Part shown: positions 39,846 to 56,111 of the stretch, piece by piece
How positions within the stretch are numbered: position 1 is the first letter of the stretch
Layout: every line of letters starts with the position of its first letter
Origin: Lachnospiraceae bacterium
GTDB lineage: Bacteria > Bacillota > Clostridia > Lachnospirales > Lachnospiraceae
Assembly (NCBI GenBank): GCA_017399685.1
Contig: JAFQBM010000035.1
Location: forward strand, 2,174-66,173
Direction: 5' to 3'
DNA: 64,000 nucleotides
Translations under genes and position numbers: made by a program
The notes under the pieces: model-generated
The model's database searches: none
What the model was told of the DNA's origin: nothing
The model's input: only the letters and a program-made list of their open reading frames with translations

Positions 39846-40005
39846 AATAATTCCTCCTTGTTTTCCAGAGGAAAATGCGACTGCCCTTGCAGGAGCAGAG
39901 GAATTATCCTCCTAACTAGATTTGTTTAGAGCAAGTATAACATGAGTAAATGAGGATAGCAAGAAGAACTTAAATAAAAAAGTTTAAGATTTTTTTGAAA
40001 ACCAC

Positions 40006-40034
40006 TTGACTTAACTTAAAATGTTTAGTAATAT
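40006..40034 (+). promoter_or_regulatory. Sigma-A-type promoter for the xis-int operon
   Basis: TTGACT (40006-40011), a 17-nt spacer and TAATAT (40029-40034). The inverted repeat TGTTTAGT...ACTAAACA overlaps it. Confidence 0.4.
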
Positions 40035-40091
40035 ATGCGATACAAACACTAAACAAATAAATTTAAGTTTCGAGAGAAAGGAGAAAAAGTT

Positions 40092-40271
40092 ATGGAAAAT
40101 AAGAACTTTATGACAGTGGATGAAGTGGCACAGGAATTGAATGTTTCAAAATCATATGCCTATAAGGTAGTCAGAGAGTTAAATGCAGAAATGCAGCAGT
40201 TAGGCTATCTGACAGTGACCGGAAGAGTAAACACGAACTTCTTCCGTAAGAAATTATGTTACAGCGAATAA
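40092..40271 (+). CDS. xis: excisionase-family HTH DNA-binding protein (59 aa, below the ORF-track cutoff)
   Basis: My own translation is MENKNFMTVDEVAQELNVSKSYAYKVVRELNAEMQQLGYLTVTGRVNTNFFRKKLCYSE. The MTVDEVA...S..Y pattern is typical of MerR-like excisionase HTH proteins. The RBS AAGGAGAAAAAG lies upstream. Confidence 0.6.
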   Translation: MENKNFMTVDEVAQELNVSKSYAYKVVRELNAEMQQLGYLTVTGRVNTNFFRKKLCYSE

Positions 40272-40301
40272 AAGAGATACAGAGGGAAAGGAGCTGATGT
40301 T

Positions 40302-41378: not shown

Positions 41379-41381
41379 TGG

Positions 41382-41702
41382 ATGGATAAGAATTTAGACT
41401 GTAAAGGACGTTGGAGAAATAAGACGGTAGCGTTTCGTGTATCAGAGGAAGAAGGAAAGCTGATTGATAATTGCGTAGCGTTATCCGGTCTTACGAAACA
41501 GGATTATATCGTCAGACGGTTGCAATGCCGGGATGTGGTGGTGCAGGGGAATCCAAGAGTTTACAAAGCACTTCGCAATCAGATGGCTGATATTTATGAG
41601 GAATTGAAACGGTTGGAGAAATGCAGTGCAGAAAATGAAGAACTGCTCTACACAATACAACTGATTACAGAAATAATGAATGGACTAAAGGAGAAAGATT
41701 GA
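41382..41702 (+). CDS. ribbon-helix-helix protein (MobC-like)
   Basis: KTVAFRVSEEEGKLIDNCVALSGLTKQDYIVRRL resembles RHH relaxosome accessory proteins. The family assignment is tentative. Confidence 0.4.
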   Translation: MDKNLDCKGRWRNKTVAFRVSEEEGKLIDNCVALSGLTKQDYIVRRLQCRDVVVQGNPRVYKALRNQMADIYEELKRLEKCSAENEELLYTIQLITEIMNGLKEKD

Positions 41703-42856
41703 TGGCAGAAAATAAAAAAGCGACTGCTCCGGTTTCATCAGTTGGCGCAGATGGGAAGCAGTCGTTATGTAATAAACACAAGGAAATTATAGCAGATTTG
41801 CCCTCGCAGGGCAATCTGCAAGCCACAAATAATCGTGGTTTTTGTGCAGAAATTCAGACAGATAAACAGGATAGGATGGATAGATTGAAAACAGTTTCCA
41901 TGACAGAACTTTATGATACCGTTTATCCGCCAAAAATCCCAATTGTAGATGGTCTGATATACGCAGGTACTTATCTTTTTGTAGGTGCGCCTAAAGTAGG
42001 AAAGTCTTTCTTTATGGCACAGCTTGGCTATCATGTGAGCATGGGGCTGGATTTGTGGGATTATCCGGTGCGAAAGGGTACAGTGTTGTATCTGGCACTG
42101 GAGGATGATTATGCAAGATTACAGAAACGATTATCAAAAATGTTTGGCATGGAAAGCAGTGAAAACTTTCATTTTGCCACACAGTCCAAAAACTTGAATG
42201 AGGGATTGGAAGAACAGCTAAACCAGTTTGTCAAAGAGCATACAGACGCAAGGCTGATTATCATTGATACGTTGCAGAAAGTAAGGGAAGTTAGCGGAGA
42301 TAAATTCAGTTATGCAAGTGACTACGAGATTGTGACAAAGCTGAAAGAATTTAGTGATGTTCATGGTATTTGTCTTTTGGTAGTACACCATACAAGAAAG
42401 ATGGAGTCCTCAGACAGTTTTGATATGATTTCCGGTACAAACGGATTGTTAGGAGCAGCAGACGGAGCCTTTGTTATGCAGAAAGAAAAGAGAACGGACA
42501 ACAAGGCAGTTTTAGAGGTTGCAGGACGTGACCAGCAAGACCAAAGGCTATTGCTCAATTTTGACAGAGAGCAATGTGTTTGGAAGCTGACTAAAGCAGA
42601 AACGGAACTTTGGAAAGAACCGGCTGATCCGGTGCTGGAAGCTGTTGCAAAGGTGGTATCAGAAGAACAGCCACAGTGGAGTGGAACCGCTTCGGAATTG
42701 TTACAGCTTTTGCCGGAGATGGATATACAGCCAAATGTGTTGACAAGGAAACTGAACATAGGAGCAGAGAAACTGTTTATAGATTATGGTATTTGTTATG
42801 AAAGCAGCAGAGGTCATAGTGGGCGCATGGTAAAACTGGAGCTTGTGAAAGCGTAA
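41699..42856 (+). CDS. RepA-like P-loop ATPase (AAA_25-type)
   Basis: Walker A GAPKVGKS, Walker B LIIIDTL and LVVHHTRK. This resembles RecA-fold replicative/primase-associated ATPases of integrative elements. Confidence 0.65.
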   Translation: MMAENKKATAPVSSVGADGKQSLCNKHKEIIADLPSQGNLQATNNRGFCAEIQTDKQDRMDRLKTVSMTELYDTVYPPKIPIVDGLIYAGTYLFVGAPKVGKSFFMAQLGYHVSMGLDLWDYPVRKGTVLYLALEDDYARLQKRLSKMFGMESSENFHFATQSKNLNEGLEEQLNQFVKEHTDARLIIIDTLQKVREVSGDKFSYASDYEIVTKLKEFSDVHGICLLVVHHTRKMESSDSFDMISGTNGLLGAADGAFVMQKEKRTDNKAVLEVAGRDQQDQRLLLNFDREQCVWKLTKAETELWKEPADPVLEAVAKVVSEEQPQWSGTASELLQLLPEMDIQPNVLTRKLNIGAEKLFIDYGICYESSRGHSGRMVKLELVKA

Positions 42857-42858
42857 GC

Positions 42859-42941
42859 GTGACGATATGTGACGGTTGTGACGGTATTTTATATAACGGT
42901 GTCGGTATAGAAAATATCGTCACTATCGTCACGACCGTCAC
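42859..42941. repeat. Iteron-like array: 3 x GTGACG, an AT-rich centre, then 3 x CGTCAC
   Basis: GTGACG occurs at 42859, 42869 and 42878. CGTCAC occurs at 42918, 42927 and 42936. The array lies in the gap after the RepA-like gene. Confidence 0.7.
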
Positions 42942-42946
42942 GTGGA

Positions 42947-43201
42947 TTGATGGAAAGGATTGATAAAATGAAAAATATACAGATTTCAGAGCGGTTATTT
43001 TTTGCACTTTTGAAATATCATTTGTTGGAAGCAGACGAAGTGTTGCCAGAGATAAAGAAAGGTTTGGAAGAAAAACTGGAAGCAATGGTAAGACGGGAAC
43101 TTTATACAAAATATAAGACTGCACCAACAGAAGAAGAACGTGAAAAAGCAAGGCAGGAGTATTTGGAAAAGGTGGGAATGCATCGGGACTTTCGATGGTA
43201 A
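42947..43201 (+). CDS. hypothetical protein
   Basis: 84-aa charged helical ORF. The start is uncertain (42950 or 42968 are possible). Confidence 0.4.
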   Translation: MMERIDKMKNIQISERLFFALLKYHLLEADEVLPEIKKGLEEKLEAMVRRELYTKYKTAPTEEEREKARQEYLEKVGMHRDFRW

Positions 43202-43349
43202 ATTTTTTCTTCGTTGTGTATAACGAGAGCGTGGCACGCTCTTGTAAATATGGTTAAGGAGAAATGCGGTGCGATGATACAGTGTACGATTACAGATATT
43301 TAAGCAAAGTGTTTTGTTATTTTGAAAAACGAGAAAGAAGGTGCGTTTT

Positions 43350-43571
43350 ATGACAGAAGGAAGATTAGGATACAATCCGGCAAATGACAGATATGGATTG
43401 TTGGTATCGGATTTATGGGTGGATAACGGATTTCATTGTGGTGAATGTTTAGAAGTTTTTGTAGATGGAAAGTGGATAAGTACCAGAATGGAAATGTCAG
43501 CAGAAAGAAAATGGTATCTGGTGGACACACCTTACTATGGAAATCTGGAATACGTGAAAGCTCGTATTTGA
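43350..43571 (+). CDS. DUF5348-like small protein
   Basis: MTEGRLGYNPANDRYGL...FHCGECLEVFVDGKW resembles the DUF5348 family seen on clostridial mobile elements. This is from memory. Confidence 0.45.
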   Translation: MTEGRLGYNPANDRYGLLVSDLWVDNGFHCGECLEVFVDGKWISTRMEMSAERKWYLVDTPYYGNLEYVKARI

Positions 43572-43802
43572 ATTAAAGTGATGGCTTGTTGCTTTAAGGC
43601 AGAATGATAAAGAACGCATAGGTAAATGCGGTAGCAAGCCCCCGGCAGGGCGCAAAACCTGACTTGTCAGGTTGCATTTTTGATACCGCAGGTGTCAAAA
43701 GTGCTTTTGCGTTACTTTCGGCGAAAGTAACAAAGCCTGTGTGCCTGTCGGCACAAAATAGGACGGATAAAAAAGAGAAAACGAAAGAGAGGTGTCAGCC
43801 TA

Positions 43803-44432
43803 TTGGAGAGAACGATTAGCGGCATGATGGGGAAGGCCAATAGTGAAGCAAGGTGGAGTAATGCACGATTAACAGAGGAAAATAAGCTGTTACAAACCGA
43901 AATAAATGATTTAGCCGGGGAAAAGGCAAAACTGCAATCCGACAATAGGGAGTTGGAGGAGCAACAGCAGAAGCTTCAGGCAGAAATAGAAGCTATGGCA
44001 GGCTCTAAAGTGAAATTGGAACGAAATGTAAGAGCTTATGATGAGGAAGAACAATGGAGGTTGCCGGAACCGGGAGCATTTACAAGCGCAAAGTCTTATC
44101 GGGAAAATAGTGCAAAGCCACTGGTAACAAGGCTGAAAGAACTTGTAAAGAGCCTGACAATTAAATGTGTTAATCTTATGGAACAGGTGAAAAGGTTGAA
44201 AGAGCAGGTAACACAGCAGACTTCGGATATTGAGTGGTACAAAGGAAAACTAAGAGAACAGGCTGGTGTTGTGGAACAGTTGCAGGAAAAAGTAGCCGAT
44301 TTGGAGCGTGTAAAGCGTTATGCCGGGGCTGAAAAGGTGCAGAGTATGATTGACAGCGTGAAAGAGGTTGAAAGGCTGGAAAACGAGCAGAAACGGTTAC
44401 AAAGAAACTATAACAGAGGAATGAGCAGATAG
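43803..44432 (+). CDS. hypothetical coiled-coil protein
   Basis: 209-aa Q/E/K-rich coiled coil with a TTG start. No relaxase motifs are present. Confidence 0.45.
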   Translation: MERTISGMMGKANSEARWSNARLTEENKLLQTEINDLAGEKAKLQSDNRELEEQQQKLQAEIEAMAGSKVKLERNVRAYDEEEQWRLPEPGAFTSAKSYRENSAKPLVTRLKELVKSLTIKCVNLMEQVKRLKEQVTQQTSDIEWYKGKLREQAGVVEQLQEKVADLERVKRYAGAEKVQSMIDSVKEVERLENEQKRLQRNYNRGMSR

Positions 44433-44445
44433 GAGATGGATTGAT

Positions 44446-44844
44446 ATGATGGATAATGAAAAGGTGTTGGAGAAACATATCATTGGAGAAAATGGAATAA
44501 GCTACACACTTGGAGAGGATGGTTTATACTATCCGGATTTGAAATTGCTGGAGGGAACACATTATGAGATAGGAAAGTATGGATTAATGCGGTGGGAGTA
44601 TTTGAAAAACTACCGCAGAGGGGAGTATATTAAGTTGCTGATGGAAGGAAAACTAAATGAACATCTGCATGAGGTTGATGAAGAATGTCATGAGAGAGTG
44701 GAGCTTATTATGGAGCAGATGAAAGTCGGGGCAGGTATTACGGAAGAATTAAAAGCTACTGACCAGATGAAGTGGGTAGGGCTTATGAATAACGTGAAAA
44801 GTGCTGCGGAGGAGATTGTGTTGAGAGAAATAGTGTACATTTGA
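44446..44844 (+). CDS. TnpV-like transposon-associated protein
   Basis: GENGISYTLGEDGLYYPDL ... GKYG..R..YLK pattern resembles TnpV of clostridial mobilisable transposons. This is from memory. Confidence 0.55.
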   Translation: MMDNEKVLEKHIIGENGISYTLGEDGLYYPDLKLLEGTHYEIGKYGLMRWEYLKNYRRGEYIKLLMEGKLNEHLHEVDEECHERVELIMEQMKVGAGITEELKATDQMKWVGLMNNVKSAAEEIVLREIVYI

Positions 44845-44862
44845 TTATATATACTTAAAATA

Positions 44863-44896
44863 GCGGGCAGTTCGTTGCGAACTGCTCTGTTTTATT
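44863..44896 (+). terminator. Rho-independent terminator at the backbone/cargo boundary
   Basis: GCAGTTCG-TTG-CGAACTGC followed by TCTGTTTTATTT. Confidence 0.65.
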
Positions 44897-45040
44897 TGCG
44901 AAATGATGTGAAAACAAAAGAAAATAAAACTTCTGATAATAAATTATGAGAACTCATAATTAGTTCTGGAAAAACATATTGCATAATATAAGGAATTGTG
45001 ATATGATAACAGAAAGTATGTTCGAAAGATGGAGGCATAT

Positions 45041-45250
45041 ATGAAAATAAGTTATAAGAAGTTATGGAAATTGTTGATAGACAAAGACATGATGAAAAAA
45101 GATTTGGCGGAATCTGCTCAAATAAGTACAGCTTCAATAGCAAAATTAGGAAGAAATGAAAATGTTAATACAGACATTTTGCTTAGAATATGTCAGGCAT
45201 TGGAATGTGATATATCAGACATTATGGAAGTAGTTGAAGATACTGAATAG
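45041..45250 (+). CDS. XRE-family HTH protein (possible R-M controller)
   Basis: KDLAESAQISTASIAKLGRNENV is a Cro/C1-type HTH. The gene lies first in the Vsr-MTase-REase cluster. Confidence 0.65.
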   Translation: MKISYKKLWKLLIDKDMMKKDLAESAQISTASIAKLGRNENVNTDILLRICQALECDISDIMEVVEDTE

Positions 45251-45265
45251 TTTGGAGTGTTTGTT

Positions 45266-45718
45266 ATGGACAGGTTGACAAAAGAACAACGCCATAAAAA
45301 TATGAGTAACATAAAAAATAAGGATACAGGTATTGAAGTAAAGCTGAGAAAAGCACTTTGGGAAAAAGGTTACCGGTATCGTAAAAATTTTAATGCATTA
45401 CCTGGAAAACCGGATATCGTATTAACAAAATATAAAATAGCAATTTTTTGTGATAGTGAGTTTTTTCATGGAAAAGATTGGGATGATTTGAAGGCACAAC
45501 TTGAACGTGGTAAAAATGCAGATTTTTGGATTAAGAAAATATCAAGAAACCGAGAAAGAGATGAAGAAATAAATAAGCAATTAATGTTTATGGGATGGAC
45601 AGTCATAAGGTTTTGGGGAAAAGATATAAAGAAAGATGTTGAAGAATGTGTCAAAGTTGTGGAAGAAACCATATTTGAATTGACTATAGCTATCAATGAA
45701 GAAGATATTTTAGACTAA
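45266..45718 (+). CDS. vsr: very-short-patch repair endonuclease
   Basis: The Vsr motifs are visible: LPGKPDIVL, IFCDSEFFHG, and the GW.VIRFW C-terminal region. Confidence 0.85.
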   Translation: MDRLTKEQRHKNMSNIKNKDTGIEVKLRKALWEKGYRYRKNFNALPGKPDIVLTKYKIAIFCDSEFFHGKDWDDLKAQLERGKNADFWIKKISRNRERDEEINKQLMFMGWTVIRFWGKDIKKDVEECVKVVEETIFELTIAINEEDILD

Positions 45719-45734
45719 AGGAGACGAACTGACA

Positions 45735-46739
45735 ATGTATACATCAATAGATTTGTTTGCCGGAATAGGTGGAATTAGAAAAGGGTTTGAAAATGCTTTT
45801 GGAAAAGATATTTCAACGGTGTTTGTGAGCGAGTGGGACGAACACGCACAAAAAACATATAGAGCCAATTATGTAGATAATTTTGAAATAGCAGGGGACA
45901 TAACTAAGATTGACGAAAAAGAAATCCCTGCATTTGATATTTGTTTAGCAGGATTTCCATGTCAGGCTTTTTCAATGGCAGGTAAAAGAATGGGATTTGA
46001 TGATGATTATAAAGGGATGTGTAGAGGTACATTATTTCAAGATGTAGTACGAGTTTGCGAATATCATAAACCAAGCGTTATTTTTTGTGAAAATGTAAAA
46101 GGATTGACAATCCATGATAGAGGAAGAACCTTTAAAGTTATTAAACGTGCATTTGAGCAGATAGGCTATACCGTTTATGATAAAGTTTTAAATAGTAAGG
46201 ATTTTGGTGTGCCACAGAATAGAGAACGTATTTATATTGTTGCTTTTCGCAATGATATAGACAGTACAAGTTTTAAGTTTCCGGTAGGAAACAATTCAGA
46301 TACAAAGATTAAAGATATAATGGAAGAAAATGTTGTAAGTGTAAAGTACTATCTTTCAACAACTTATTTAGAAACTCTGGAGCGACACAAGGAAAGGCAC
46401 AAAGCCAGAGGAAATGGTTTTGGCTATGAAATACGCGATATAAATGGTCAAGCGGGAGCTATTGTATGTGGAGGAATGGGGAGAGAAAGAAATCTGATTG
46501 TGGATAAGCGATTGAAGAATTTCACCCCTGTTACGCATATAAAAGGTGAGGTTAACAGGTTGGGAATAAGGAAAATGACACCAAGAGAGTGGGCGAGATT
46601 GCAGGGATTTCCGGATAGCTTTAAATTGGAACTTGCAGATACGCATTTATATAAACAGTTTGGTAACAGTGTAACGGTTAATGTTATTGAAGCAATTGCA
46701 AAAGAGATAAGGAGGATACTTGAAAATGGCAAAAAATGA
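45735..46739 (+). CDS. dcm: DNA (cytosine-5)-methyltransferase
   Basis: Motif I DLFAGIGG, motif IV GFPCQAFS, motif VI ENVKGL, motif VIII QNRERIY and motif X GNSVTV. Confidence 0.9.
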   Translation: MYTSIDLFAGIGGIRKGFENAFGKDISTVFVSEWDEHAQKTYRANYVDNFEIAGDITKIDEKEIPAFDICLAGFPCQAFSMAGKRMGFDDDYKGMCRGTLFQDVVRVCEYHKPSVIFCENVKGLTIHDRGRTFKVIKRAFEQIGYTVYDKVLNSKDFGVPQNRERIYIVAFRNDIDSTSFKFPVGNNSDTKIKDIMEENVVSVKYYLSTTYLETLERHKERHKARGNGFGYEIRDINGQAGAIVCGGMGRERNLIVDKRLKNFTPVTHIKGEVNRLGIRKMTPREWARLQGFPDSFKLELADTHLYKQFGNSVTVNVIEAIAKEIRRILENGKK

Positions 46740-47808
46740 TGGAAGAATGTCAGGAAATAAAGGCGAATGGTCGGAATTATATGCATTTATGAAATTATTA
46801 AGTCAGGGAAGGGTATATGCAGCAACTGAGAAGGTAGAAAAAATAGATGATGTTTTTTATCCGATTCTTAAGATTATGCGTGAAGAACAAAAAGGACAGA
46901 TTATTGATTATGTAATTACTGAAGATAATATTGATATCGAAATCGAGTCAAGAACGATTATGTCTGTTTCAAGAAAAGAATTCGATGATAATGCAAATTT
47001 TTTGTTACAGGAAATTGCTACTCATAGTGGAAGTTTTGAATTGGAAGAAGTTGCCAAATTTGCAAATGGAATTAAGGTAACAAAGATAAAAGCACCGTCT
47101 TCTGATACAACGGATATTTCTATGCAGATACAGGATATACATACAAATTATATTCGTAATGTTGGTTTTTCAATAAAATCAGAAGTGGGTAATGCTCCTA
47201 CTTTACTCAATGCAGGGCAGACTACGAATTTTATCTATAAGGTTACCGGAATTACAGCGGAACAGGCACAGGAAATTAATGCAATAGATACCTCAACTAA
47301 GATTAAAGACAGAATAAAAGCAATCAAAGAACTGGGCGGTACTATTAGTTATGTTGATATGAATCATCAGGGATTTAAACGTAACCTGATAATGGTGGAT
47401 AGCAGTATGCCGCAAATTATTGGCAATATGCTTTTGTATTATTTTGAAGAAGATATTAAAGAATGTGATAAATTAGTTGAGCTTGCAGGACAGAGAGATC
47501 CGCTTGGATATGGGGACGCTATGATGTATGAATATAAATTTAAAAAGTTCCTTTGTTCATGCGCATTGGGAATGAAGCCTGCAAAGAAATGGGATGGTTT
47601 GGATGAAGCCAATGGCGGTTATATAATTGTAAAAGCTGATGGTGAGATACTGGCATATCATATTTATAACAGAAATTTCTTTGAACAGTATTTGTTGGAT
47701 AATACTATTTTGGAAAGGGCTTCTACAAGCAGACATGAGTATATGCGTTTATATGAGGAAGAGGGAGAAATGTTTATTAAATTTAATTTGCAGGTAAGGT
47801 TTAGATAA
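46720..47808 (+). CDS. type II restriction endonuclease, HpaII-like
   Basis: The N-terminal NKGEWSELYAFMKLL motif recalls the HpaII REase family (from memory). It overlaps the methyltransferase stop. TTG start with AAGGAGG upstream. Confidence 0.55.
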   Translation: MKMAKNDGRMSGNKGEWSELYAFMKLLSQGRVYAATEKVEKIDDVFYPILKIMREEQKGQIIDYVITEDNIDIEIESRTIMSVSRKEFDDNANFLLQEIATHSGSFELEEVAKFANGIKVTKIKAPSSDTTDISMQIQDIHTNYIRNVGFSIKSEVGNAPTLLNAGQTTNFIYKVTGITAEQAQEINAIDTSTKIKDRIKAIKELGGTISYVDMNHQGFKRNLIMVDSSMPQIIGNMLLYYFEEDIKECDKLVELAGQRDPLGYGDAMMYEYKFKKFLCSCALGMKPAKKWDGLDEANGGYIIVKADGEILAYHIYNRNFFEQYLLDNTILERASTSRHEYMRLYEEEGEMFIKFNLQVRFR

Positions 47809-47855: not shown

Positions 47856-48830
47856 GTGTTAGAGGTGATGAACGTGTCTATAGCTGAAGAATATAGGAAA
47901 ATATACAATGTGTATGTATGCAAGGAATTGGAACAAGAAATTGCAATATACGAGGCGGAAAAAGGGATAAATAATTATCAACCATTAAGTCATAATTGCG
48001 CACAAAAATGTGCTGGTAACTGTAATCATCAATGCCATAAAAGTCTTGGAAAATTAATGAGAAAAAATATTGTATTTTATTGTTATGGCGAAGACGAGAT
48101 AGTAACCAATTTTCAAAATGGACTTTTTTCTGATTTGGAAAAAGCTACGAAAGCAGCCTATAGATTGCGTTTACCCAAACGCCAACCAAACATGGATGGA
48201 TTACCAAGTGAGGTTTTATTGGATGCAATTATTCAATCATTATTTCCTGATGCATATAAAATGGCTGTTAGGACAATATTTAGGCAAAATGATAACAATG
48301 AAATAAAGGGCTATGATTTAACTTATTTTACTAATATGCATGGAACAATTACATTATGGCTGGGACAAGCTAAATTGGGGAGTAAACAATATTGTAAAAA
48401 TGGTATTTTAGAAGATTTAGAAAAAAAGTATACAGATTTGTATATGGCTAATCAAATTTATTTTATGGCAGATAAACCTACTGGACTTACAGAAGAAGGA
48501 AAACAAATTGCAAATTTATTGAATAGGTTAAATATGTTGAATGCATATGAAGATGATGATAATCGAGCTGAGCAACTCATGCAATTTTTAAAGACACAAA
48601 ATATAGATATATGTATACCATGTCTTTTGGCATATAACAAGGCAGATGTGTATGCGGATGTTAGAAAACTTGAAAATAAAATGAAATCTGAGATGGCATG
48701 GGCAAAAGGAATTTTTGAAAAATATTTTAAATTTGCAGGAATTGAGCCAAAATTGATTTTTATAATATTTCCAATAGATGATATTGAAGCCTTACGAGGA
48801 GATGAAGGATTTTATGAAGGATTATGTTAA
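47856..48830 (+). CDS. DUF1837-like (HamA-like) putative PD-(D/E)xK effector
   Basis: The pattern GLPSEVLLDAII ... KGYDLTYF ... LWLGQAKLG fits the E...D...(E/Q)xK layout. It overlaps the downstream SF2 helicase gene. The start is uncertain. Confidence 0.5.
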   Translation: MLEVMNVSIAEEYRKIYNVYVCKELEQEIAIYEAEKGINNYQPLSHNCAQKCAGNCNHQCHKSLGKLMRKNIVFYCYGEDEIVTNFQNGLFSDLEKATKAAYRLRLPKRQPNMDGLPSEVLLDAIIQSLFPDAYKMAVRTIFRQNDNNEIKGYDLTYFTNMHGTITLWLGQAKLGSKQYCKNGILEDLEKKYTDLYMANQIYFMADKPTGLTEEGKQIANLLNRLNMLNAYEDDDNRAEQLMQFLKTQNIDICIPCLLAYNKADVYADVRKLENKMKSEMAWAKGIFEKYFKFAGIEPKLIFIIFPIDDIEALRGDEGFYEGLC

Positions 48831-51216
48831 TTTGCTTTTGGATGCGATAAACAATTATAATGATGAAGATATGAGCAGTAAAAATAAATTGCGTGATTTA
48901 GTATGTATAATTTCTGAAAACGATAATATAAAAAACGATCCGCTTATTAGGGAATTATTATATACTGCTTCTCATAAGATGCGCATTTTTGGTTATAATG
49001 TGCAGAACGGTTTTTATAAGCAGGATATTCTAATTGAACAAAATTCATCCGAATTAATGTATCTTCGCAATCAAAGTATTATTAGCAGGTATCGGTCTAA
49101 AGTAAGAAGTAATAATATACTTGATAAAAGTCAACAAAATATTATTGATTTTTATCAATCTTTGGATAAAAAGCGAATGCTGGTTAGCGCACCGACTTCA
49201 TATGGAAAAACTTTTATTATGCGTGAGATATTATATTTGAATCAAGAAAGATATAATAATGTATTACTTGTGTTTCCGACAGTAGCATTATTACGAGAAA
49301 ATGCATTGAATATGGAAGAATTAAACCGTGAAAAGAAAATGGGATATAATGTTATCAAATCCATTGATGGCGAAATAAATAGTCAAGAAAGAAATATTTT
49401 CGTATTTACGCCTGAAAGAGCAATGCAGCTATTAGCAAACTACCCGGATATTAAGATAGATTTCTTTTTTTATGATGAAATGTATAAAATTGACGAAGAT
49501 TACTGTAATGAAGAGACAGATGATAATGAGGAGCAAACAAGGAAAAATCCTTATACAGAACATACATTTTTAGACGAGGCGAGGGCAAAAACATTTCGCA
49601 TTTGTTTATACATTCTTTCGAAAAGGGTAGAAGATTATTATTTGGCTGGACCTAATTTAAAAAGAGATAAATTCGGAAAGGGAATGCAGAGATATATTGC
49701 AACAAATGACATAAAAATTAAAGAAATTGAATTTGAGCCTACAAAACGAATACAAGTAAAAGCATATAATAAGACAATTGATGAAGATTATACAGATTTG
49801 CCTTATTTAGAAAAACCAGAGTTGGCTAGTATGCACAGTAAAGTCAATGATAGAATTTGTGATGTGGTTGAGTATATTGAAAAAAAAGGATACGGAGCGA
49901 CAATGCTATATTGCACAACTCCTGCAAAAGCAAATGAATACGCAACTAAGTTGGCACAAAGACATCGGGAGAATGTAGTAACAAACAAAAGATTTTCCTT
50001 GTTTATTGAACATCTCAAAAGAAATTATAATATAGACGATTCTATTAATGAATGGAGTTTTGTGAATGTATTGGAGAAAGGTTTTGGAATGCATCATGGA
50101 AAAATGCCAAAATATATTCAAAAAGAGGTATTGGATTTGTTTAATGATGGTGTATTTAATTTGCTTTTTTGTACGTCAACAATTGTTGAGGGGGTTAACA
50201 CTAATGCAAAGAATATGGTTGTATTAAATCATAAAAAAGGTGGAAGTGATTTAACGGTTTTTGATTTTAAAAATATTATCGGAAGGGCTGGAAGATATTA
50301 TCATAATTTTGTTGGAAGATATTTTTTAGTTGATAAGGAATTGAAAAAATTTGAGCATACTGAAGATTTGGAACTTAATTTTATTACTTATGATGAACAA
50401 ATTTTAGATCCTATAGATATAGATAATTCTGAATATGATGATTTGACGTATGAGAATAAGAAACTTAAACAAAAGAGATTAGAGGAACAACGAGAATATA
50501 TATTAAAAGATGAAGTGTATGAAAAAAATAGACTGATTAAAAAAGAGTATCAGGAAATACTTTTAAAATTTTTGATAAATAATGATGAACTTTACAATAA
50601 GTTTTATAATTATACTACTTTCCCGGACATATTGGCACAGTTTACTACTTACCATGCTATGAGTACTGTACTTGACATATTTGAACAGTCAGGTCTGCTT
50701 GAGAAGATGATTGTTTCCAGATACAAGGCTATCAGTAATACATATTGTAGTGAGGGTTTTCGAGGTCTGTTGAAATATGAAATTGATAATGCCTGGAAAG
50801 AAAAATATGATAAGTATGGAAATAAAGTGAAAAAGAGCATAGATAGGGCATACATGGATGCATTTAAAACACAAAAGGAAATTATCGAACATAAGATACC
50901 CAAAATGTTGGCACTATTTGAAACTATTTTTTTATATGCGTCTTCAGTTAAAGGGAGAAAAATAAGTAAATTTTCGCTGTCAAAAGTTACACGTTTTTAT
51001 GAAACTGGTGTAAAAAGTTATTTTGGAGAGCAACTGGTTGAATTTGGATTTCCAGTTGATGCAATTAAAAGGATAGAAGATAGTAATGTGAAATTAGTGT
51101 CTATGGATGCGGATTCAAGTAAGAAGTATATACAGGAAAATTTGAATGATATTAGTAAGGTATTGGATATGTATGAAAAGGAATTATTAAATAGGGCTTT
51201 AAAATCTATTTTTTAG
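48814..51216 (+). CDS. SF2 (Ski2-like) DEAD/DEAH-box helicase, HamB-like
   Basis: Motif I APTSYGKT (GKT at 49204-49212), motif II YDEM (49471-49482), MHHGKM, TSTIVEGVN and GRAGR. The ORF is open from 48778; 48802 and 48814 are the possible ATG starts. Confidence 0.75.
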   Translation: MKDYVNLLLDAINNYNDEDMSSKNKLRDLVCIISENDNIKNDPLIRELLYTASHKMRIFGYNVQNGFYKQDILIEQNSSELMYLRNQSIISRYRSKVRSNNILDKSQQNIIDFYQSLDKKRMLVSAPTSYGKTFIMREILYLNQERYNNVLLVFPTVALLRENALNMEELNREKKMGYNVIKSIDGEINSQERNIFVFTPERAMQLLANYPDIKIDFFFYDEMYKIDEDYCNEETDDNEEQTRKNPYTEHTFLDEARAKTFRICLYILSKRVEDYYLAGPNLKRDKFGKGMQRYIATNDIKIKEIEFEPTKRIQVKAYNKTIDEDYTDLPYLEKPELASMHSKVNDRICDVVEYIEKKGYGATMLYCTTPAKANEYATKLAQRHRENVVTNKRFSLFIEHLKRNYNIDDSINEWSFVNVLEKGFGMHHGKMPKYIQKEVLDLFNDGVFNLLFCTSTIVEGVNTNAKNMVVLNHKKGGSDLTVFDFKNIIGRAGRYYHNFVGRYFLVDKELKKFEHTEDLELNFITYDEQILDPIDIDNSEYDDLTYENKKLKQKRLEEQREYILKDEVYEKNRLIKKEYQEILLKFLINNDELYNKFYNYTTFPDILAQFTTYHAMSTVLDIFEQSGLLEKMIVSRYKAISNTYCSEGFRGLLKYEIDNAWKEKYDKYGNKVKKSIDRAYMDAFKTQKEIIEHKIPKMLALFETIFLYASSVKGRKISKFSLSKVTRFYETGVKSYFGEQLVEFGFPVDAIKRIEDSNVKLVSMDADSSKKYIQENLNDISKVLDMYEKELLNRALKSIF

Positions 51217-51397: not shown

Positions 51398-53623
51398 ATG
51401 GAAGAGTTAAAGATGAAATTAGAAAACTGTTTTGGTATTCAAAATATGCAACAAGATATTAATTTTTCAAAAAATAATGTAGGGGTAATATATGCACCGA
51501 ATGGAACAATGAAATCGTCGTTAGCTAAAACATTTGAATACATTAGAGCTGGCAAGGTGGTTGAAGAAAAAATATTTGGTGCTAATAGTTCTTATTCTAT
51601 TACGGATGAAAATGGTAAAGATATTTTACCGGAAAATATAATGGTCATTAATCCGTTTGACGAAAAGACATATGAAAATCAGGGGATGTTAATGGCAAAT
51701 GCAGAATTAAGAAAGAAATATTTATTAATTCATAAAGATATTGATGACAAGAAGGAAGCCTTATATGAGGAGTTGAAGTCACTATTGGGTTATTCGTCAA
51801 GAAGTTCTTTTAATGTTGAGAGTACAATGTTATTAGATTGGAAAAGTACTAAAAAAGAATTGTTTTTATGTTTGGAGAATATATCCAATGTGCTTCATGA
51901 TTCAGATATGAACTGTTGTTTGAAAGTGGATGAAATAGATTATAATACTTTATTCAATGATAAAGTATATTCTATGATTACTACTGGAAAAACGTCAGAG
52001 TTGATTGAAGAATATGAAAAGAAATATAACGAGCTAGTTGAAAAGTCTTTATATATGCAGAAGGGGATTATTGATCATAATAATTACACGAATATTAGTG
52101 ATTCATTGAATAATAATGGATTCTTTGGAGCAAATAACGAGATAAAGTTGAATGCAAAGGATGGAAGCACATCAATAATGATTAAATCACAAGTAGAATT
52201 AAATGATTTAATTAAGAATGAAAAAGAACAGGTTCTCAATACAAAAGAATTAAAAGAATTGTTTGAAAAAATAAATAAAGCAATTAGTAAAAATAAAGAT
52301 ACACAAGCATTTAATGCGTTTTTACAGCAGCATCCTGACATAGTATCTGAATACAAAGATATAGAAAAATTCAAGAAAAAGATATGGGTAAAGGTTTTTT
52401 TGGCTTCTGAAACAAAATTATCAGAACTATTAGCTGATTATAAAAAAGCTCAAGATGAACTTAAAGTATTGAGGAACAAAGCTAAGCAAGAAACGACAGA
52501 TTGGAATAAGGCATTGGATCTGTTTAAGGAAAGATTTTTTGTACCATTTACTATAGAAACCGCAAATCAGGAAGATGTTATTCTTAATATGGATATGCCA
52601 AGTTTTAAATATATATTTTCTGATGAGAGGGGAATTAAGGAAGTTGCAAAAGAAAATTTACTGGAAGTATTGAGTACTGGGGAGAAAAGGGCATATTATA
52701 TCCTGAATTTAATATTTCAGATTTTGGTAGCAAAAAATGAGGGGAAAGAAAAAATAGTGATTTTGGATGATATATCAGAGTCATTTGATTATAAAAATAA
52801 GCACGCAATTATTGAGTACATAAGTGATATATCAGGATTTGTTGATGCACAAGGGAATAAGCTATTTAAAGTACTATTGCTGACACATAACTTTGATTTT
52901 TATAGGACAGTTGCGTTGAGAATAACAACACGGGCAAATGCTTATATAGCTTTTACGGATAAAGGCGAGGTGAAGTTTGAAAAAGGTCAGTACACAAAAA
53001 ATATTTTTGGGCATTATAAAGAACTTCTTATTAAGGGAAATTGTGATAATATTATAATTGCAGCGATTCCGTTTGTTAGAAACTTAATAGAATACACGGA
53101 AGGTGATAGTGATGCAGATTATTTGCGTTTAACAAGTATATTACACTATAAAACAGACACAAAGACAATCACATTAAAAGATGTTCAAGACATATTTAAC
53201 AGGCATTGGTGTAAGAATGGAAATTTTAGTTTTGCAGTGGGGCGAGAAACTGAATTGATATATGATATCATTATGGCTGAAGCGAATAAAATCACAAATA
53301 TAGAAAAATTAGAGATAGAAAGCAAACTGATTTTGTCAATGGCAATAAGATTAAAATCTGATGAATTTATGACACAGCAGATTTTGACAAAATTACCAAA
53401 TGGTTTAGATGTTATCAATGATATATATAGTAAGAAGAATCAAAGTGCGTGGTTGATTAAGGAATATAAGAAAAATATAAACGATGACGTGATGGGAACA
53501 TTGGAACAGGTTGCTATGCTTACCCCTGAAAATATACACTTAAATTCTTTTATGTTTGAACCTATTTTAGATATGTCCTTGGTACATTTATATGATTTAT
53601 ATCAGAAGGTAAAAGCATTTTAG
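51398..53623 (+). CDS. ABC/Rad50-like ATPase with a helical insert and a PrrC/RloC-like C-terminal domain
   Basis: Walker-A-like APNGTMKS (51494-51517), signature LSTGEK, Walker B IVILDD, H-loop LLTHN, then a C-terminal R561-x3-E565...H583 motif. Confidence 0.5.
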   Translation: MEELKMKLENCFGIQNMQQDINFSKNNVGVIYAPNGTMKSSLAKTFEYIRAGKVVEEKIFGANSSYSITDENGKDILPENIMVINPFDEKTYENQGMLMANAELRKKYLLIHKDIDDKKEALYEELKSLLGYSSRSSFNVESTMLLDWKSTKKELFLCLENISNVLHDSDMNCCLKVDEIDYNTLFNDKVYSMITTGKTSELIEEYEKKYNELVEKSLYMQKGIIDHNNYTNISDSLNNNGFFGANNEIKLNAKDGSTSIMIKSQVELNDLIKNEKEQVLNTKELKELFEKINKAISKNKDTQAFNAFLQQHPDIVSEYKDIEKFKKKIWVKVFLASETKLSELLADYKKAQDELKVLRNKAKQETTDWNKALDLFKERFFVPFTIETANQEDVILNMDMPSFKYIFSDERGIKEVAKENLLEVLSTGEKRAYYILNLIFQILVAKNEGKEKIVILDDISESFDYKNKHAIIEYISDISGFVDAQGNKLFKVLLLTHNFDFYRTVALRITTRANAYIAFTDKGEVKFEKGQYTKNIFGHYKELLIKGNCDNIIIAAIPFVRNLIEYTEGDSDADYLRLTSILHYKTDTKTITLKDVQDIFNRHWCKNGNFSFAVGRETELIYDIIMAEANKITNIEKLEIESKLILSMAIRLKSDEFMTQQILTKLPNGLDVINDIYSKKNQSAWLIKEYKKNINDDVMGTLEQVAMLTPENIHLNSFMFEPILDMSLVHLYDLYQKVKAF

Positions 53624-54092: not shown

Positions 54093-54701
54093 ATGAGTAG
54101 ACGATTTTCATTACAAATTCTACTTCCTATAGAAGGCTATGAGGAAGATAAGATATACACATGCGAAGACATTGAGCTTAAAGTGGTGAATTCTAATCTG
54201 AAGCCGGATAATATATATTATAGACGTTTAAAGGAAAAATCTGTTTATACATCTTTTGATGATATTGCTGCATTTGCTTGCCAAAAATATTCGCTAGGAG
54301 AAATACATAACTTTTCTATGCATACCGATTATTTTGGTGCTCGCGAGATTGAATATGCAGGCAATAGATACATTGTTACAGAAGATGAAGTAAAACAGCT
54401 TGAAAGAGAACATATTACAGAATCTGTATATTGTAATGAATTCAAATACTGTAGTTTGAGTTGGTTTTATACCAGTATTGGGGACGAGCTTCTTCCGGAA
54501 GATATGGCTGTCGTGGATGATGAGCTGATACAAAAAGCTTCATCTTTAGTGGGATATGAGTCAGAGAAAGATTTTGCGAGCAAGTTGGCTGATGTTATAG
54601 AGGAGGAAGCCGATTGGGAAGACAAGTTTATAGCATCGCTCATATTGGCAAAGGAAATTGCTGGACGTGTGAATGGAAGAGCGGTTTTGTGGTATGACTG
54701 A
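54093..54701 (+). CDS. hypothetical protein
   Basis: 202-aa ORF with GGGGGA upstream. I recognise no family. Confidence 0.4.
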   Translation: MSRRFSLQILLPIEGYEEDKIYTCEDIELKVVNSNLKPDNIYYRRLKEKSVYTSFDDIAAFACQKYSLGEIHNFSMHTDYFGAREIEYAGNRYIVTEDEVKQLEREHITESVYCNEFKYCSLSWFYTSIGDELLPEDMAVVDDELIQKASSLVGYESEKDFASKLADVIEEEADWEDKFIASLILAKEIAGRVNGRAVLWYD

Positions 54702-54722: not shown

Positions 54723-56111
54723 ATGAAGGAAAAAGAGCATCAATCTATAGAGTGGAAAGAGTCTTGGCAGGATGAGTATTTAAAATGGATTTGTGGATAT
54801 GCTAATGCTTACGGTGGAACATTATATATAGGTACTGATGACGATGGTAATGTGGTGAGGATTGACAATGCAAGAGAGCTTTTGGAACGAATCCCTAATA
54901 AAATTACTGATATGATGGGTATCATCGCGGATGTAAATTTATTGTATAAAGACGACCTTGAGTATTTGCAGATAGTTGTTGATAAATATCCGTCTTTAAT
55001 AAGTTTCCGTGGAAAATATTACTATCGTTCAGGAAGTACCATGCGTGAGATTACCGGAAAGGAATTGGAAAGAGCTTTGTTAAAGACGCAGGGAAGAACG
55101 TGGGATGGCGTACCATTGCCTAAAATATCAGTGGATGATTTAAAACAGGATGCAATACAACTGTTTAAGGAGAAGGCTGTAAAGAGAGGTAGACTTACGC
55201 AAGAGGAAGCTGGCGTTGAAGATTCTATTTTGATGGACAACCTGCATCTTATTGATGAAGAGGGATATTTGATAAGGGCAGCCATGTTGGCTTTTTATAA
55301 AGATCCTGAAAAGTGGGTAACCGGTTCCTATATTAAAATCGGTTACTTTGGCAAGTCTGATGCAGATTTGGTATATCAGGATGAAGTGCATGGTCCGTTG
55401 ATTGAGCAGGTAGATAAGACAGTTGATTTAGTATATACAAAATATATGAAAGCGCTAATTGCTTATGAGGGAATTCAGAGAGTGGAGCAGTTTATGTTCC
55501 ATAAGGATGCTTTTCGTGAAATTCTTTTGAACGCAATTGTTCATAAGGATTATAGTAGTTGTAATCCTATTCAGATCAGCGTTTATGAGGATAAGATATA
55601 CATTTGGAACGACGGTGAAATGCCACCTAACCTGGATTCTACGGACAAGCTGTTTATGAAGCATTCGTCTAAGCCATATAATCCGAAATTGGCAAATGTA
55701 TTCTTAAAAAGCGGTATGATTGAAGCCTGGGGAAGAGGTTTTGAAAAGATTAAAGAAGCATGTGGATTGTACGATGGTCCGTTGCCGGAATATGAGATAA
55801 ATGAGTCTGGTATTATGGTGTTGTGTAAGGCTTGTGATAGATATTTGGAGTTGCTGTCAGGGCAAGAAAAAGTCGATTCGCTCATTTCAGATGAGCGAAT
55901 TATGAGCGAAAAAATGAGCGAATTAAAGAAAGAACCAATTGTTAAAATAGTAAATTACTTAAAAGATAATGAAGAAATTACTACAGCAAAAGGTGTTGAA
56001 ATCACAGGGAAATCAGTAGCTCAGGTGAGAAGATATTTAAAAACATTATGTGATTTAGGAATCATAAAGAGTACACGCACTACTAAGGGTAATGTGTATG
56101 TGAAGGTATAA
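54723..56111 (+). CDS. AlbA_2 (Schlafen-like) / HATPase_c_4-type putative DNA-binding protein
   Basis: N-terminal IEWKESW...GGTLYIGTDDDGNV, a central ILLNAIVHKDY region and a C-terminal winged-helix-like tail. Confidence 0.6.
   Translation: MKEKEHQSIEWKESWQDEYLKWICGYANAYGGTLYIGTDDDGNVVRIDNARELLERIPNKITDMMGIIADVNLLYKDDLEYLQIVVDKYPSLISFRGKYYYRSGSTMREITGKELERALLKTQGRTWDGVPLPKISVDDLKQDAIQLFKEKAVKRGRLTQEEAGVEDSILMDNLHLIDEEGYLIRAAMLAFYKDPEKWVTGSYIKIGYFGKSDADLVYQDEVHGPLIEQVDKTVDLVYTKYMKALIAYEGIQRVEQFMFHKDAFREILLNAIVHKDYSSCNPIQISVYEDKIYIWNDGEMPPNLDSTDKLFMKHSSKPYNPKLANVFLKSGMIEAWGRGFEKIKEACGLYDGPLPEYEINESGIMVLCKACDRYLELLSGQEKVDSLISDERIMSEKMSELKKEPIVKIVNYLKDNEEITTAKGVEITGKSVAQVRRYLKTLCDLGIIKSTRTTKGNVYVKV

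What the first reader, a model, noticed from the sequence alone, without database searches (positions are those of the whole stretch)
47856..51216. Hachiman-like two-gene module (DUF1837-like + Ski2-like helicase) with an atypical effector
**Seen in the sequence:**
- A 324-aa ORF overlaps an ~800-aa SF2 helicase ORF by 17-53 nt, depending on which start is used.
- The helicase has motif I APTSYGKT, motif II DEMY, MHHGKM, TSTIVEGVN and GRAGR.
- The small protein shows the E...D...xK arrangement expected of a PD-(D/E)xK fold (SEVLL ... GYDLTYF ... LGQAKLG).

**Established knowledge:** Hachiman defence systems consist of HamA (DUF1837, a PD-(D/E)xK nuclease) plus HamB (an SF2 helicase).

**Two unusual points:**
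- The position I expect to be the catalytic acidic residue of the ExK element is Gln (CAA, 48366-48368).
- The N-terminal region carries a tight Cys cluster, C48-x3-C52-x3-C56-x3-C60-H61 (47997-48038). I do not associate this with HamA. It looks like a small metal-binding or redox knuckle.

The module may therefore be a divergent or non-canonical Hachiman subtype.
Basis: partly seen in the sequence, partly recalled or inferred. Interest (0 to 1): 0.72.

Follow-up and report, generated by a model that had tools for sequence, protein, structure and literature searches.

The report
Hachiman defence pair, QxK-type HamA
This is an ordinary two-gene Hachiman anti-phage system (HamA nuclease plus HamB helicase) on a mobile defence island of a gut Firmicute. 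Its nuclease belongs to a branch that uses Gln instead of Glu in the catalytic motif, and it carries a small, conserved four-cysteine loop of unknown role.

Summary
The 324-aa ORF scores 51.6 bits against Pfam HamA/DUF1837 (cut-off 25) and 2e-18 against PADLOC HamA1. The helicase scores 8e-94 against HamB1. The overlapping hamA-hamB pair recurs in 30+ unrelated loci with no conserved third gene.

Q171 does occupy the position of the catalytic Glu (E138 in E. coli HamA). It is not a lesion. It is invariant in 113/113 close homologues and in all 26 more distant full-length cluster representatives of a discrete "QxK clade". E119, D154 and K173 stay invariant. D-QxK is a known active variant of the motif (Mrr-like/Type ISP nucleases, Cap4 domain of AbpA).

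The CX3CX3CX3C loop is real and conserved as an all-or-none unit: 76 homologues have at least 4 Cys, 37 have 0-1, and none have 2-3. It is an 8-residue insertion confined to a mainly Lachnospiraceae sub-clade. It lies just before the helix-loop-helix that aligns with the HamB-docking element of E. coli HamA. Its cofactor and role cannot be determined here.

Verdict: a new member of a known system, in a divergent but probably functional HamA branch. "Atypical effector" is overstated. The Cys loop is the only undescribed feature.

The parts
47856..48830 (+). hamA (DUF1837/HamA, PD-(D/E)xK-fold nuclease). It is 324 aa from GTG 47856. The probable true start is GTG 47874 (318 aa).
   Evidence: Pfam PF08878 51.6 bits against a cut-off of 25. 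PADLOC HamA1 2.3e-18. AF2 model pLDDT 85, with E. coli HamA 8vx9_A/8vxy_A as the only significant Foldseek PDB hits. Homologues are 318 aa.
47861..47868 (+). Shine-Dalgarno-like AGAGGTGA, 5 nt upstream of GTG 47874
   Evidence: Read directly from the sequence. Consistent with the 318-aa homologues.
47991..47993 (+). H46 codon. Invariant in the QxK clade and absent from ExK-clade HamA.
47997..48038 (+). Cys loop C48-x3-C52-x3-C56-x3-C60-H61. It arises from an 8-residue insertion (residues 49-56) between strand 40-46 and helix 60-76.
   Evidence: At least 4 Cys in 76/113 homologues, 0-1 Cys in 37/113, none intermediate. The Cys-less set is monophyletic. Secondary structure from the AF2 model.
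48195..48224 (+). Helix-alpha1 acidic residues: D114-G115-LPS-E119 ... D123. G115 and E119 are shared with all HamA. D123 is specific to the QxK clade.
   Evidence: These residues align with the 'GDLGE' segment of E. coli HamA.
48315..48317 (+). D154, the invariant catalytic Asp of the PD-(D/E)xK core
   Evidence: Invariant in 66/66 representatives of both clades. Aligns with the D of 'RGED' in 8vx9_A.
48366..48374 (+). Q171-A172-K173, the (E/Q)xK element. Q171 is equivalent to E138 and K173 to K140 of E. coli HamA.
   Evidence: Q in 113/113 close homologues and in 26/26 QxK-clade representatives, against E in 40/40 distant HamA. Residue-level alignment to 8vx9_A T-E138-A-K140.
48814..51216 (+). 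hamB (SF2 Ski2-like helicase, AbpB-like subgroup with DExY motif II). It is 800 aa from ATG 48814, or 812 aa from ATG 48778.
   Evidence: PADLOC HamB1 8.2e-94 over residues 13-807. PDB hits: 8zue_B (AbpB) 5.5e-35 and 8vx9_B (HamB) 3.9e-13. Start inferred from homologous loci.
48814..48830 (+). 17-nt hamA/hamB overlap (probable translational coupling)
   Evidence: Overlaps of 14-35 nt (modal 17) were found in 30+ homologous loci.
49189..49212 (+). HamB motif I (Walker A), APTSYGKT
49474..49485 (+). HamB motif II (Walker B), DEMY. AbpB has DEFY at the aligned position.
   Evidence: and the alignment
50089..50295 (+). HamB RecA2 motifs: MHHGKM (50089-50106), TSTIVEGVN (motif V, 50173-50199), GRAGR (motif VI, 50281-50295)
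   Evidence: Pfam Helicase_C 1.2e-10.

Best explanation
The locus is a type I Hachiman anti-phage system. It is carried as cargo in a defence island of an integrative element inserted next to guaA in a spore-forming gut Firmicute, probably a Lachnospiraceae.

By homology with the characterised E. coli systems, the mechanism is inferred as follows. HamA and HamB form a 1:1 complex in which the helicase holds the nuclease inactive. Entry of a 3' ssDNA end or damaged DNA into HamB triggers ATP hydrolysis, which activates or releases HamA. HamA then degrades DNA indiscriminately, giving abortive infection.

This HamA belongs to a discrete clade in which the metal-site Glu of the ExK element is replaced by an invariant Gln. 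E119, D154 and K173 are retained, and there are clade-specific extra carboxylates (D123, D187). I infer that this D...QxK site is catalytically competent, as in Mrr-like/Type ISP nucleases and the Cap4 domain, and that HamA is the sole effector.

The four-cysteine loop is an 8-residue insertion gained within this clade. It sits at the N-terminal end of the helix-loop-helix that aligns with the HamB-docking element of E. coli HamA. The most likely role is a small structural metal (Zn or Fe-S) or disulfide staple that stiffens this docking element.

Shown here: family membership, residue equivalences, conservation patterns and operon conservation. Inferred: complex formation, DNA-damage sensing, nuclease activity of the QxK site, and any metal binding.
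For: Family membership:
- HamA and HamB HMM hits.
- The HamB PDB relatives are AbpB and HamB.
- The AF2 model of HamA matches only E. coli HamA in the PDB.

Catalytic site:
- The profile alignment puts Q171/K173 on E138/K140 of 8vx9_A. Mutating those residues abolishes defence (PMC12278908).
- Q171 is invariant in 113/113 close homologues and 26/26 clade representatives, down to about 25% identity, although a single CAA-to-GAA change would restore Glu.
- E119, D154 and K173 are invariant in both clades.
- The truly inactive AbpA DUF1837 has lost these residues (LWIGFSELV against LWLGQAKLG, aligned by eye).
- QxK is active in the Cap4 domain (D45/Q58/K60, PMC11914072) and is typical of Mrr-like/Type ISP nucleases (PMC3874165, PMC11037411).

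Two-gene architecture:
- The overlapping hamA-hamB pair sits among unrelated flanking genes in 30+ loci, with no conserved third gene.

Cys loop:
- It shows all-or-none conservation.
- Variants of it occur in archaeal and other Bacillota copies.
- It lies before helices 60-76/79-87, which align with E. coli HamA residues from about 36 onward, within the 30-63 interface region (PMC12278908).
Against: - I did not find any QxK-clade HamA that has been assayed. All characterised active HamA proteins are ExK (E138/K140, E150/K152, E147/K149).
- The published classification treats absence of (D/E)xK as a sign of an inactive scaffold (PMC11914072).
- The sequence link to 8vx9_A is weak on its own (E = 0.039). 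It rests on agreement with Foldseek (TM 0.41-0.49, 13% identity).
- The CX3C spacing is not a recognised Zn or Fe-S signature. I had no model coordinates, so I could not check whether the four thiols converge.
- The interface assignment of the loop is by alignment offset only.
Confidence: 0.8

Rival explanations
1. HamA here is a catalytically dead scaffold, like the DUF1837 domain of AbpA. Loss of the ExK Glu would abolish metal binding. Toxicity or defence would then come from HamB alone or from another gene of the island, for example PDC-S46 182 nt downstream.
For: The strict (D/E)xK motif is absent. The closest solved HamB relative is AbpB, whose partner has an inactive DUF1837 (PMC11914072). 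No QxK HamA has been assayed in the papers read.
Against: - There is no extra effector domain: the protein is 318-324 aa and DUF1837-only.
- No third gene is conserved across 30+ loci, and PDC-S46 is absent from the homologous loci.
- E119, D154, Q171 and K173 are under strict conservation across a deep clade, whereas AbpA has lost them.
- QxK is active in other PD-(D/E)xK nucleases (PMC3874165, PMC11914072).
Confidence: 0.12
2. The Cys loop is a regulatory sensor and not a passive staple. It would be an O2- or redox-labile Fe-S or Zn-thiolate site whose state controls HamA-HamB docking or HamA release in strictly anaerobic hosts.
For: - There are four co-conserved Cys with all-or-none distribution.
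- The loop is located next to the predicted HamB-docking helix-loop-helix.
- It is restricted to anaerobic gut lineages, including methanogenic archaea.
Against: - Sister-clade systems in equally anaerobic hosts lack the loop and keep the same HamB architecture.
- The spacing varies slightly (3-3-3, 3-2-3, 2-4-3, 2-3-3) and matches no known cluster motif.
- There are no coordinates or biochemistry.
Confidence: 0.15
3. The Cys cluster is an artefact of a wrong start or a strain-specific insertion without function.
For: It is absent from a third of close homologues and from all more distant HamA. The annotated GTG start is probably 18 nt too far upstream.
Against: The loop lies 40+ residues inside the ORF, whichever start is used. 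All four Cys are retained in 76 homologues, down to about 45-49% identity, and in an archaeal copy.
Confidence: 0.02

Closest known systems
E. coli ECOR31 HamAB (PDB 8VX9/8VXY; Tuck et al., Cell 2024, PMC12278908)
   Same: Both are two-gene HamA (DUF1837, PD-(D/E)xK fold) plus HamB (Ski2-like SF2 helicase) systems. This is the only significant structural match of the HamA model. The catalytic D, K and helix-alpha1 Glu align.
   Different: - The HamA proteins share 13% identity.
- The catalytic E138 is Gln here.
- ECOR31 HamB is 1174 aa with an OB-like C-terminal domain and a DEGH motif II. HamB here is 800 aa with DEMY, and the sequence match is weaker (3.9e-13).
- There is no Cys loop in the stretch of ECOR31 HamA aligned here (residues 36-182), and no zinc or cysteine is mentioned in the paper.
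E. coli K-12 AbpAB / type I-B Hachiman (PDB 8ZUE; PMC11914072)
   Same: AbpB is the closest solved relative of this HamB (5.5e-35, aligned through the C-terminal helical domain, with a DEFY-type motif II).
   Different: AbpA is 538 aa, with an N-terminal Cap4 nuclease domain and a degenerate DUF1837 (GFSE in place of GQAK). HamA here has no Cap4 domain and keeps D154 and K173.
Type I-A Hachiman of E. coli DEC14B and type III-B of S. thermophilus (PMC11914072, PMC13064477)
   Same: Both have a DUF1837-only HamA acting as a HamB-dependent non-specific DNase. The essential residues (G89/D90/E93, D127, E147/K149 in S. thermophilus) have the same order and spacing as D114-G115..E119/D123, D154 and Q171/K173 here.
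   Different: Those enzymes have ExK. This clade has QxK plus its own invariant residues (H46, D123, G175, C180, D187, C256, Y266).
Mrr-like PD-QxK nuclease domains of Type ISP/Type IV restriction enzymes (PMC3874165, PMC11037411)
   Same: They use the same D...QxK catalytic variant, coupled to an SF2-type ATP motor.
   Different: There is no detectable sequence relationship, since the only Pfam hit is HamA. Those enzymes are single polypeptides with methyltransferase and target-recognition modules.

Membership tests
Hachiman (type I) defence system | HamA protein with a DUF1837/PF08878 domain | tested here: met
   Pfam HamA 51.6 bits against a cut-off of 25. Six PADLOC HamA models match, the best at 2.3e-18. 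Foldseek matches 8vx9_A with probability 1.00.
Hachiman (type I) defence system | HamB SF2 (Ski2-like) helicase matching HamB profiles, with intact ATPase motifs I and II | tested here: met
   PADLOC HamB1 8.2e-94 over nearly the full length. Pfam DEAD/ResIII/Helicase_C hits. Motifs APTSYGKT, DEMY and GRAGR are present.
Hachiman (type I) defence system | hamA immediately upstream of hamB on the same strand, forming a two-gene module without HamC | tested here: met
   The genes overlap by 17 nt here. The same overlapping pair occurs in 30+ loci with unrelated flanks. The best PADLOC hits are HamA1/HamB1.
Hachiman (type I) defence system | HamA-HamB heterodimer and protection against phage | not testable with these tools
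   This needs co-purification, a multimer prediction, or phage challenge.
Hachiman type I-A (classification of PMC11914072): DUF1837-only HamA with conserved (D/E)xK active site | DUF1837 is the only domain | tested here: met
   A single Pfam hit covers residues 63-303 of 324.
Hachiman type I-A (classification of PMC11914072): DUF1837-only HamA with conserved (D/E)xK active site | Catalytic D ... (D/E)xK present | tested here: inconclusive
   D154 and K173 are present and invariant. The (D/E) position is an invariant Gln. The literal motif is not met, but the site is conserved and QxK is a known active variant. Activity was not tested.
AbpAB / type I-B Hachiman | HamA with an N-terminal Cap4 nuclease domain and a degenerate DUF1837 | tested here: not met
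   There is no Cap4/DUF4297 hit, and the protein is only 318-324 aa. The AbpA DUF1837 has lost D, E and K, whereas this one keeps D and K.
PD-(D/E)xK nuclease superfamily | alpha-beta-beta-beta-alpha-beta core with an acidic residue on helix alpha1, Asp at the start of beta2, and (D/E/Q)xK on beta3 | tested here: met
   In the AF2 secondary structure, helix 116-129 carries E119, strand 155-161 is preceded by D154, strand 164-175 carries Q171/K173, and helix 177-191 follows. The fold matches HamA.
Fe-S 'iron staple' PD-(D/E)xK nucleases (AddB/Cas4/Dna2 type; considered from memory) | One Cys N-terminal and a CX2CX5C triad C-terminal of the nuclease core, which together clamp the domain | tested here: not met
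   The four Cys here are contiguous (residues 48-60) and lie N-terminal of the core. No C-terminal triad is present.

The most novel reading that the evidence does not exclude
The four-cysteine loop is a metal or redox switch (Zn-thiolate or O2-labile Fe-S) placed at the base of the HamB-docking helix-loop-helix. In these strictly anaerobic hosts, release or activation of the HamA nuclease would then respond to redox or metal status as well as to DNA damage. In addition, the QxK clade as a whole (invariant H46, C180, C256, D123, D187) may have a remodelled active or metal site with different cofactor or substrate preferences from ExK HamA.
Probability: 0.15. Interest if true: 0.55.

Novelty: new member of a known kind. 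Interest (0 to 1): 0.28.

Why it matters
Practically, it shows that standard tools annotate this locus correctly as Hachiman. It also shows that a literal '(D/E)xK present or absent' test would misclassify a whole, deeply conserved QxK branch of stand-alone HamA nucleases as inactive scaffolds. That branch has about 46 clusters at 50% identity. It is found mainly in gut, rumen and soil Bacillota and in gut methanogens.

If the QxK site is active as inferred, the active/inactive dichotomy used to subdivide type I Hachiman needs a third state. The conserved Cys4 loop is a cheap, testable handle (Cys-to-Ser mutants, metal analysis) on how HamA is held by and released from HamB. That step is still the least understood part of the Hachiman mechanism.

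Tried and rejected
- Single-sequence and narrow-profile searches of HamA against PDB sequences found nothing. Only a broader profile spanning both clades reached 8vx9_A, and only weakly.
- An HMM alignment of AbpA's DUF1837 to my profile covered only the C-terminal part. The catalytic-strand comparison with AbpA is therefore by eye, on the LW[LI]G anchor.
- I looked for a partner difference that could explain the Cys loop. HamB is about 780-800 aa in both the Cys+ and Cys- clades, so there is no gross co-variation.
- I looked for att direct repeats bounding the integrative element and found nothing convincing.
- The promoter and terminator scan gave no signal above shuffled controls.
- NCBIfam has no model for this HamA.
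- tblastn against PLSDB plasmids found no match.
- A literature search for the CX3CX3CX3C spacing gave only extracellular minicollagen disulfide domains and one singleton ferredoxin subtype. No cofactor can be assigned from that.
- No paper linking DUF1837/HamA with cysteines or zinc was found.
- I could not obtain model coordinates, so the thiol geometry and the proximity of H46, C180 and C256 were not checked.
- I could not establish whether the founding B. cereus Hachiman is QxK or ExK.
Full report
OBSERVATION. One is a 324-aa ORF at 47856-48830 (GTG start). The other is an 812-aa ORF at 48778-51216. Both are on the + strand. In-frame ATGs at 48778, 48802 and 48814 give overlaps of 53, 29 and 17 nt with the hamA stop at 48828-48830. 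All quoted helicase motifs, the CAA Gln codon at 48366-48368, and the Cys-rich segment at 47997-48038 were verified. There are two refinements. Most homologues are 318 aa and begin MS[VI]AEE. An AGAGGTGA ribosome-binding site precedes the GTG at 47874, so the real hamA start is probably 47874. HamB is called at 800 aa with a 17-nt overlap in homologous loci, which points to ATG 48814 here.

IDENTITY. The small protein passes Pfam's HamA (PF08878, formerly DUF1837) threshold with 51.6 bits against 25. It matches six PADLOC HamA models, the best at 2.3e-18. The helicase matches PADLOC HamB1 models at up to 8.2e-94 over almost its whole length. It also matches Pfam DEAD, ResIII and Helicase_C. 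Its closest solved relatives are AbpB (8zue_B, 5.5e-35), an unnamed HamB-like chain (9wh1_B), and E. coli HamB (8vx9_B, 3.9e-13), followed by Pol-theta, Brr2, Ski2, Mtr4 and Hel308 helicases. An AlphaFold2 model of HamA built on 28 homologues is confident (pLDDT 85, pTM 0.87). Its only significant Foldseek hits in the PDB are the two E. coli HamA chains (probability 1.00, 13% identity). The locus is therefore a Hachiman type I system.

IS THE TWO-GENE MODULE AUTONOMOUS? In metagenomic and genomic loci encoding relatives of this HamA, hamB always follows. The relatives range from 87% down to 33% identity. The hosts are Lachnospiraceae, Oscillospiraceae, Erysipelotrichaceae, Flavonifractor, Sporobacter, Selenomonadaceae, Paenibacillus, Rossellomorea and two Methanomassiliicoccales archaea. 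The overlap is 14-35 nt, with a mode of 17. The flanking genes are unrelated between loci, and none of the window's neighbours (HpaII R-M, PDC-S46) recurs. No third effector gene is conserved.

THE GLN IN QAK. Three lines of evidence place Q171 at the position of the catalytic Glu.

- First, in a MAFFT alignment of 71 full-length representatives from a search of 1.84 billion cluster representatives, the strand "LWLG-Q-A-K" of the nearer relatives aligns column for column with "LWFG-E-A-K" of the more distant HamA proteins.
- Second, a profile spanning both groups has E. coli HamA 8vx9_A as its best PDB hit. That hit aligns T137-E138-A139-K140 with G170-Q171-A172-K173. It also aligns the E. coli "GDLGE" and "RGED" segments with G115...E119 and G152-Y-D154. 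E138/K140 are the residues whose mutation abolishes defence (PMC12278908).
- Third, the order and spacing match the six residues tested in S. thermophilus HamA, five of which proved essential (PMC13064477).

The Gln is not a defect of this strain, however. It is present in 113/113 close homologues. It is also present in all 26 full-length QxK-clade representatives in alignment A2, which fall to about 25% identity with the query. All 40 more distant HamA representatives have Glu. Of the 66 aligned proteins, 56 match Pfam HamA individually. G115, D154 and K173 are invariant, and E119 is nearly invariant, across both groups.

The QxK clade also has its own invariant residues that the ExK group lacks: H46, D123, G175, C180, D187, C256 and Y266. 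D123 lies one helical turn after E119, and D187 lies on the helix after the QxK strand. They are plausible compensating carboxylates, but this is inference.

By contrast, the DUF1837 domain of AbpA has "LWIGFSELV" at this strand. It has lost both the acid and the Lys (aligned by eye). The authors regard that domain as an inactive scaffold (PMC11914072).

D...QxK is an established active variant of the motif. It is the typical form in Mrr-like endonuclease domains, including Type ISP enzymes, where it is coupled to an SF2-like motor (PMC3874165, PMC11037411). The Cap4 nuclease domain of AbpA itself uses D45/Q58/K60, and mutating these abolishes defence (PMC11914072).

I therefore conclude that this HamA is most likely an active nuclease and the sole effector of the module (about 0.75-0.8). 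The caveat is that no QxK-clade HamA has been assayed in the literature I could read.

THE CYS CLUSTER. The cluster is real and conserved. Among 113 full-length close homologues, 76 have at least four Cys in the loop between H46 and L64. Of these, 62 have the exact 3-3-3 spacing. The rest have 3-2-3, 2-4-3 or 2-3-3 spacing, or an extra Cys. The other 37 have 0-1 Cys, and none has two or three.

The Cys-less proteins differ by a clean 8-residue deletion (residues 49-56). They form a monophyletic group in a neighbour-joining tree built without the loop columns. All more distant HamA proteins also lack the insertion. The loop was therefore gained within the QxK clade.

It occurs mainly in Lachnospiraceae (Acetatifactor, Roseburia, Agathobacter). 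It also occurs in another Bacillota MAG and in a termite-gut methanogen, Candidatus Methanoplasma, whose loop reads HHCANCATRCDDDCY.

In the AF2 model the loop is a coil (pLDDT about 81) between strand 40-46 and helix 60-76. By the alignment to 8vx9_A, helices 60-76 and 79-87 correspond to the E. coli HamA 30-63 helix-loop-helix. That element docks onto the N-terminal helical domain of HamB (PMC12278908).

All-or-none retention of four thiols is what a joint metal site or a pair of disulfides would produce. However, the CX3C spacing matches no recognised Zn or Fe-S signature. The partner HamB shows no gross difference between the Cys+ and Cys- clades. I had no coordinates to test the geometry. 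My best guess is a structural metal staple at the base of the HamB-docking element (about 0.5). A regulatory redox or metal switch is possible but less likely (about 0.15).

MECHANISM. Family membership, residue equivalences, conservation and operon structure are shown here. The rest is inferred by homology with the ECOR31, DEC14B, K-12 and S. thermophilus systems (PMC12278908, PMC11914072, PMC13064477). In that model HamA and HamB form a heterodimer in which HamA alone is inactive. HamB binds DNA, and ATP hydrolysis on encountering 3' ssDNA ends or damaged DNA activates or releases HamA. HamA then degrades phage and host DNA non-specifically, causing abortive infection.

CONTEXT. The genes upstream of 39 kb are housekeeping and sporulation genes: comEC, holA, gpr, spoIIP and guaA. 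After guaA come an HTH gene on the opposite strand, a tyrosine integrase (40302-41378), an AAA_25 ATPase, TnpV and a Cro/C1 HTH. These are followed by a Vsr, 5mC-methyltransferase and HpaII-endonuclease cassette (45257-47808), then hamAB, then a PDC-S46 candidate defence gene (51398-53623, 3e-233), and then an AlbA_2/HATPase_c_4/wHTH protein. GC content falls from about 0.36-0.41 to 0.28-0.31 across 48-54 kb. This is a defence island on an integrative element. I could not find its att repeats.

COMPARISON AND NOVELTY. The system is a member of Hachiman type I by every testable criterion. Within the published sub-classification (I-A: DUF1837-only with (D/E)xK; I-B/C/D: extra effector domain and motif lost) it fits I-A in architecture, but it does not carry the literal motif. 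I found no description of a QxK HamA clade or of a Cys-rich HamA loop in the papers available. The substitution is conservative with clear precedent, and the architecture and predicted mechanism are unchanged. I therefore rate it a new member of a known kind, of modest interest. Its main value is a caution for motif-based classification and a small testable feature near the HamA-HamB interface.

Noticed in passing
window 45257-47808 (+): A complete HpaII-type restriction-modification cassette with its own repair nuclease sits immediately upstream of hamA. It comprises Vsr (45257-45718, PF03852 8e-29), a C5-cytosine methyltransferase (45735-46739, 5e-95), and an HpaII-family endonuclease (46720-47808, PF09561 2e-121).
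   Followed up: partly
window 51398-53623 (+): A 741-aa protein matches the PADLOC candidate single-gene defence system PDC-S46 end to end (3e-233). It has only faint SMC/RecF-type ATPase similarity. It lies 182 nt downstream of hamB but is absent from the homologous Hachiman loci, so it is probably an independent system.
   Followed up: partly
window 39288-45250: An integrative-element backbone lies next to guaA (37569-39110). It comprises an HTH repressor on the minus strand, a tyrosine integrase (40302-41378), an AAA_25 ATPase (41699-42856), TnpV (44446-44844) and a Cro/C1 HTH (45029-45250). GC drops to 0.28-0.31 over 48-54 kb. No att direct repeats were found.
   Followed up: partly
window 54723-56111 (+) and 54093-54701 (+): A Schlafen AlbA_2 + HATPase_c_4 + winged-HTH protein has weak PADLOC hits to pAgo-associated and SIR2-PNTD models. 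It is preceded by a 202-aa protein with no family match. These may be further defence or regulatory cargo.
   Followed up: no
HamA residues H46, D123, G175, C180, D187, C256, Y266 (e.g. window 47991-47993, 48393-48395): This set of residues is invariant in the QxK clade and absent from ExK-clade HamA. D123 and D187 could be relocated metal ligands. H46, C180 and C256 could form a clade-wide structural metal site. Neither idea could be checked without model coordinates.
   Followed up: partly
L017 6001-6936; L032 6001-6504: QxK-clade HamA genes occur in Methanomassiliicoccales archaea. One is in a Methanomassiliicoccaceae MAG (46% identity, Cys-less). The other is in Candidatus Methanoplasma reticulitermitis (58% identity, with a C-x2-C-x3-C-x3-C loop). 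This indicates transfer between gut Bacillota and gut methanogens.
   Followed up: partly
L004 8950-11351; L023; L026: Some homologous loci carry disrupted or truncated hamB. In L004 it is split into ORFs of 270 and 549 aa, while identical neighbours have an intact 800-aa gene. L023 has a 446-aa hamB and L026 a 561-aa one. This is consistent with occasional inactivation of a costly system, or with assembly errors.
   Followed up: no
window 49474-49485: HamB motif II is DEMY (DExY) and not the DExH typical of Ski2-like helicases. AbpB has DEFY at the aligned position, so this is a trait of the AbpB-like HamB subgroup and not an anomaly.
   Followed up: partly
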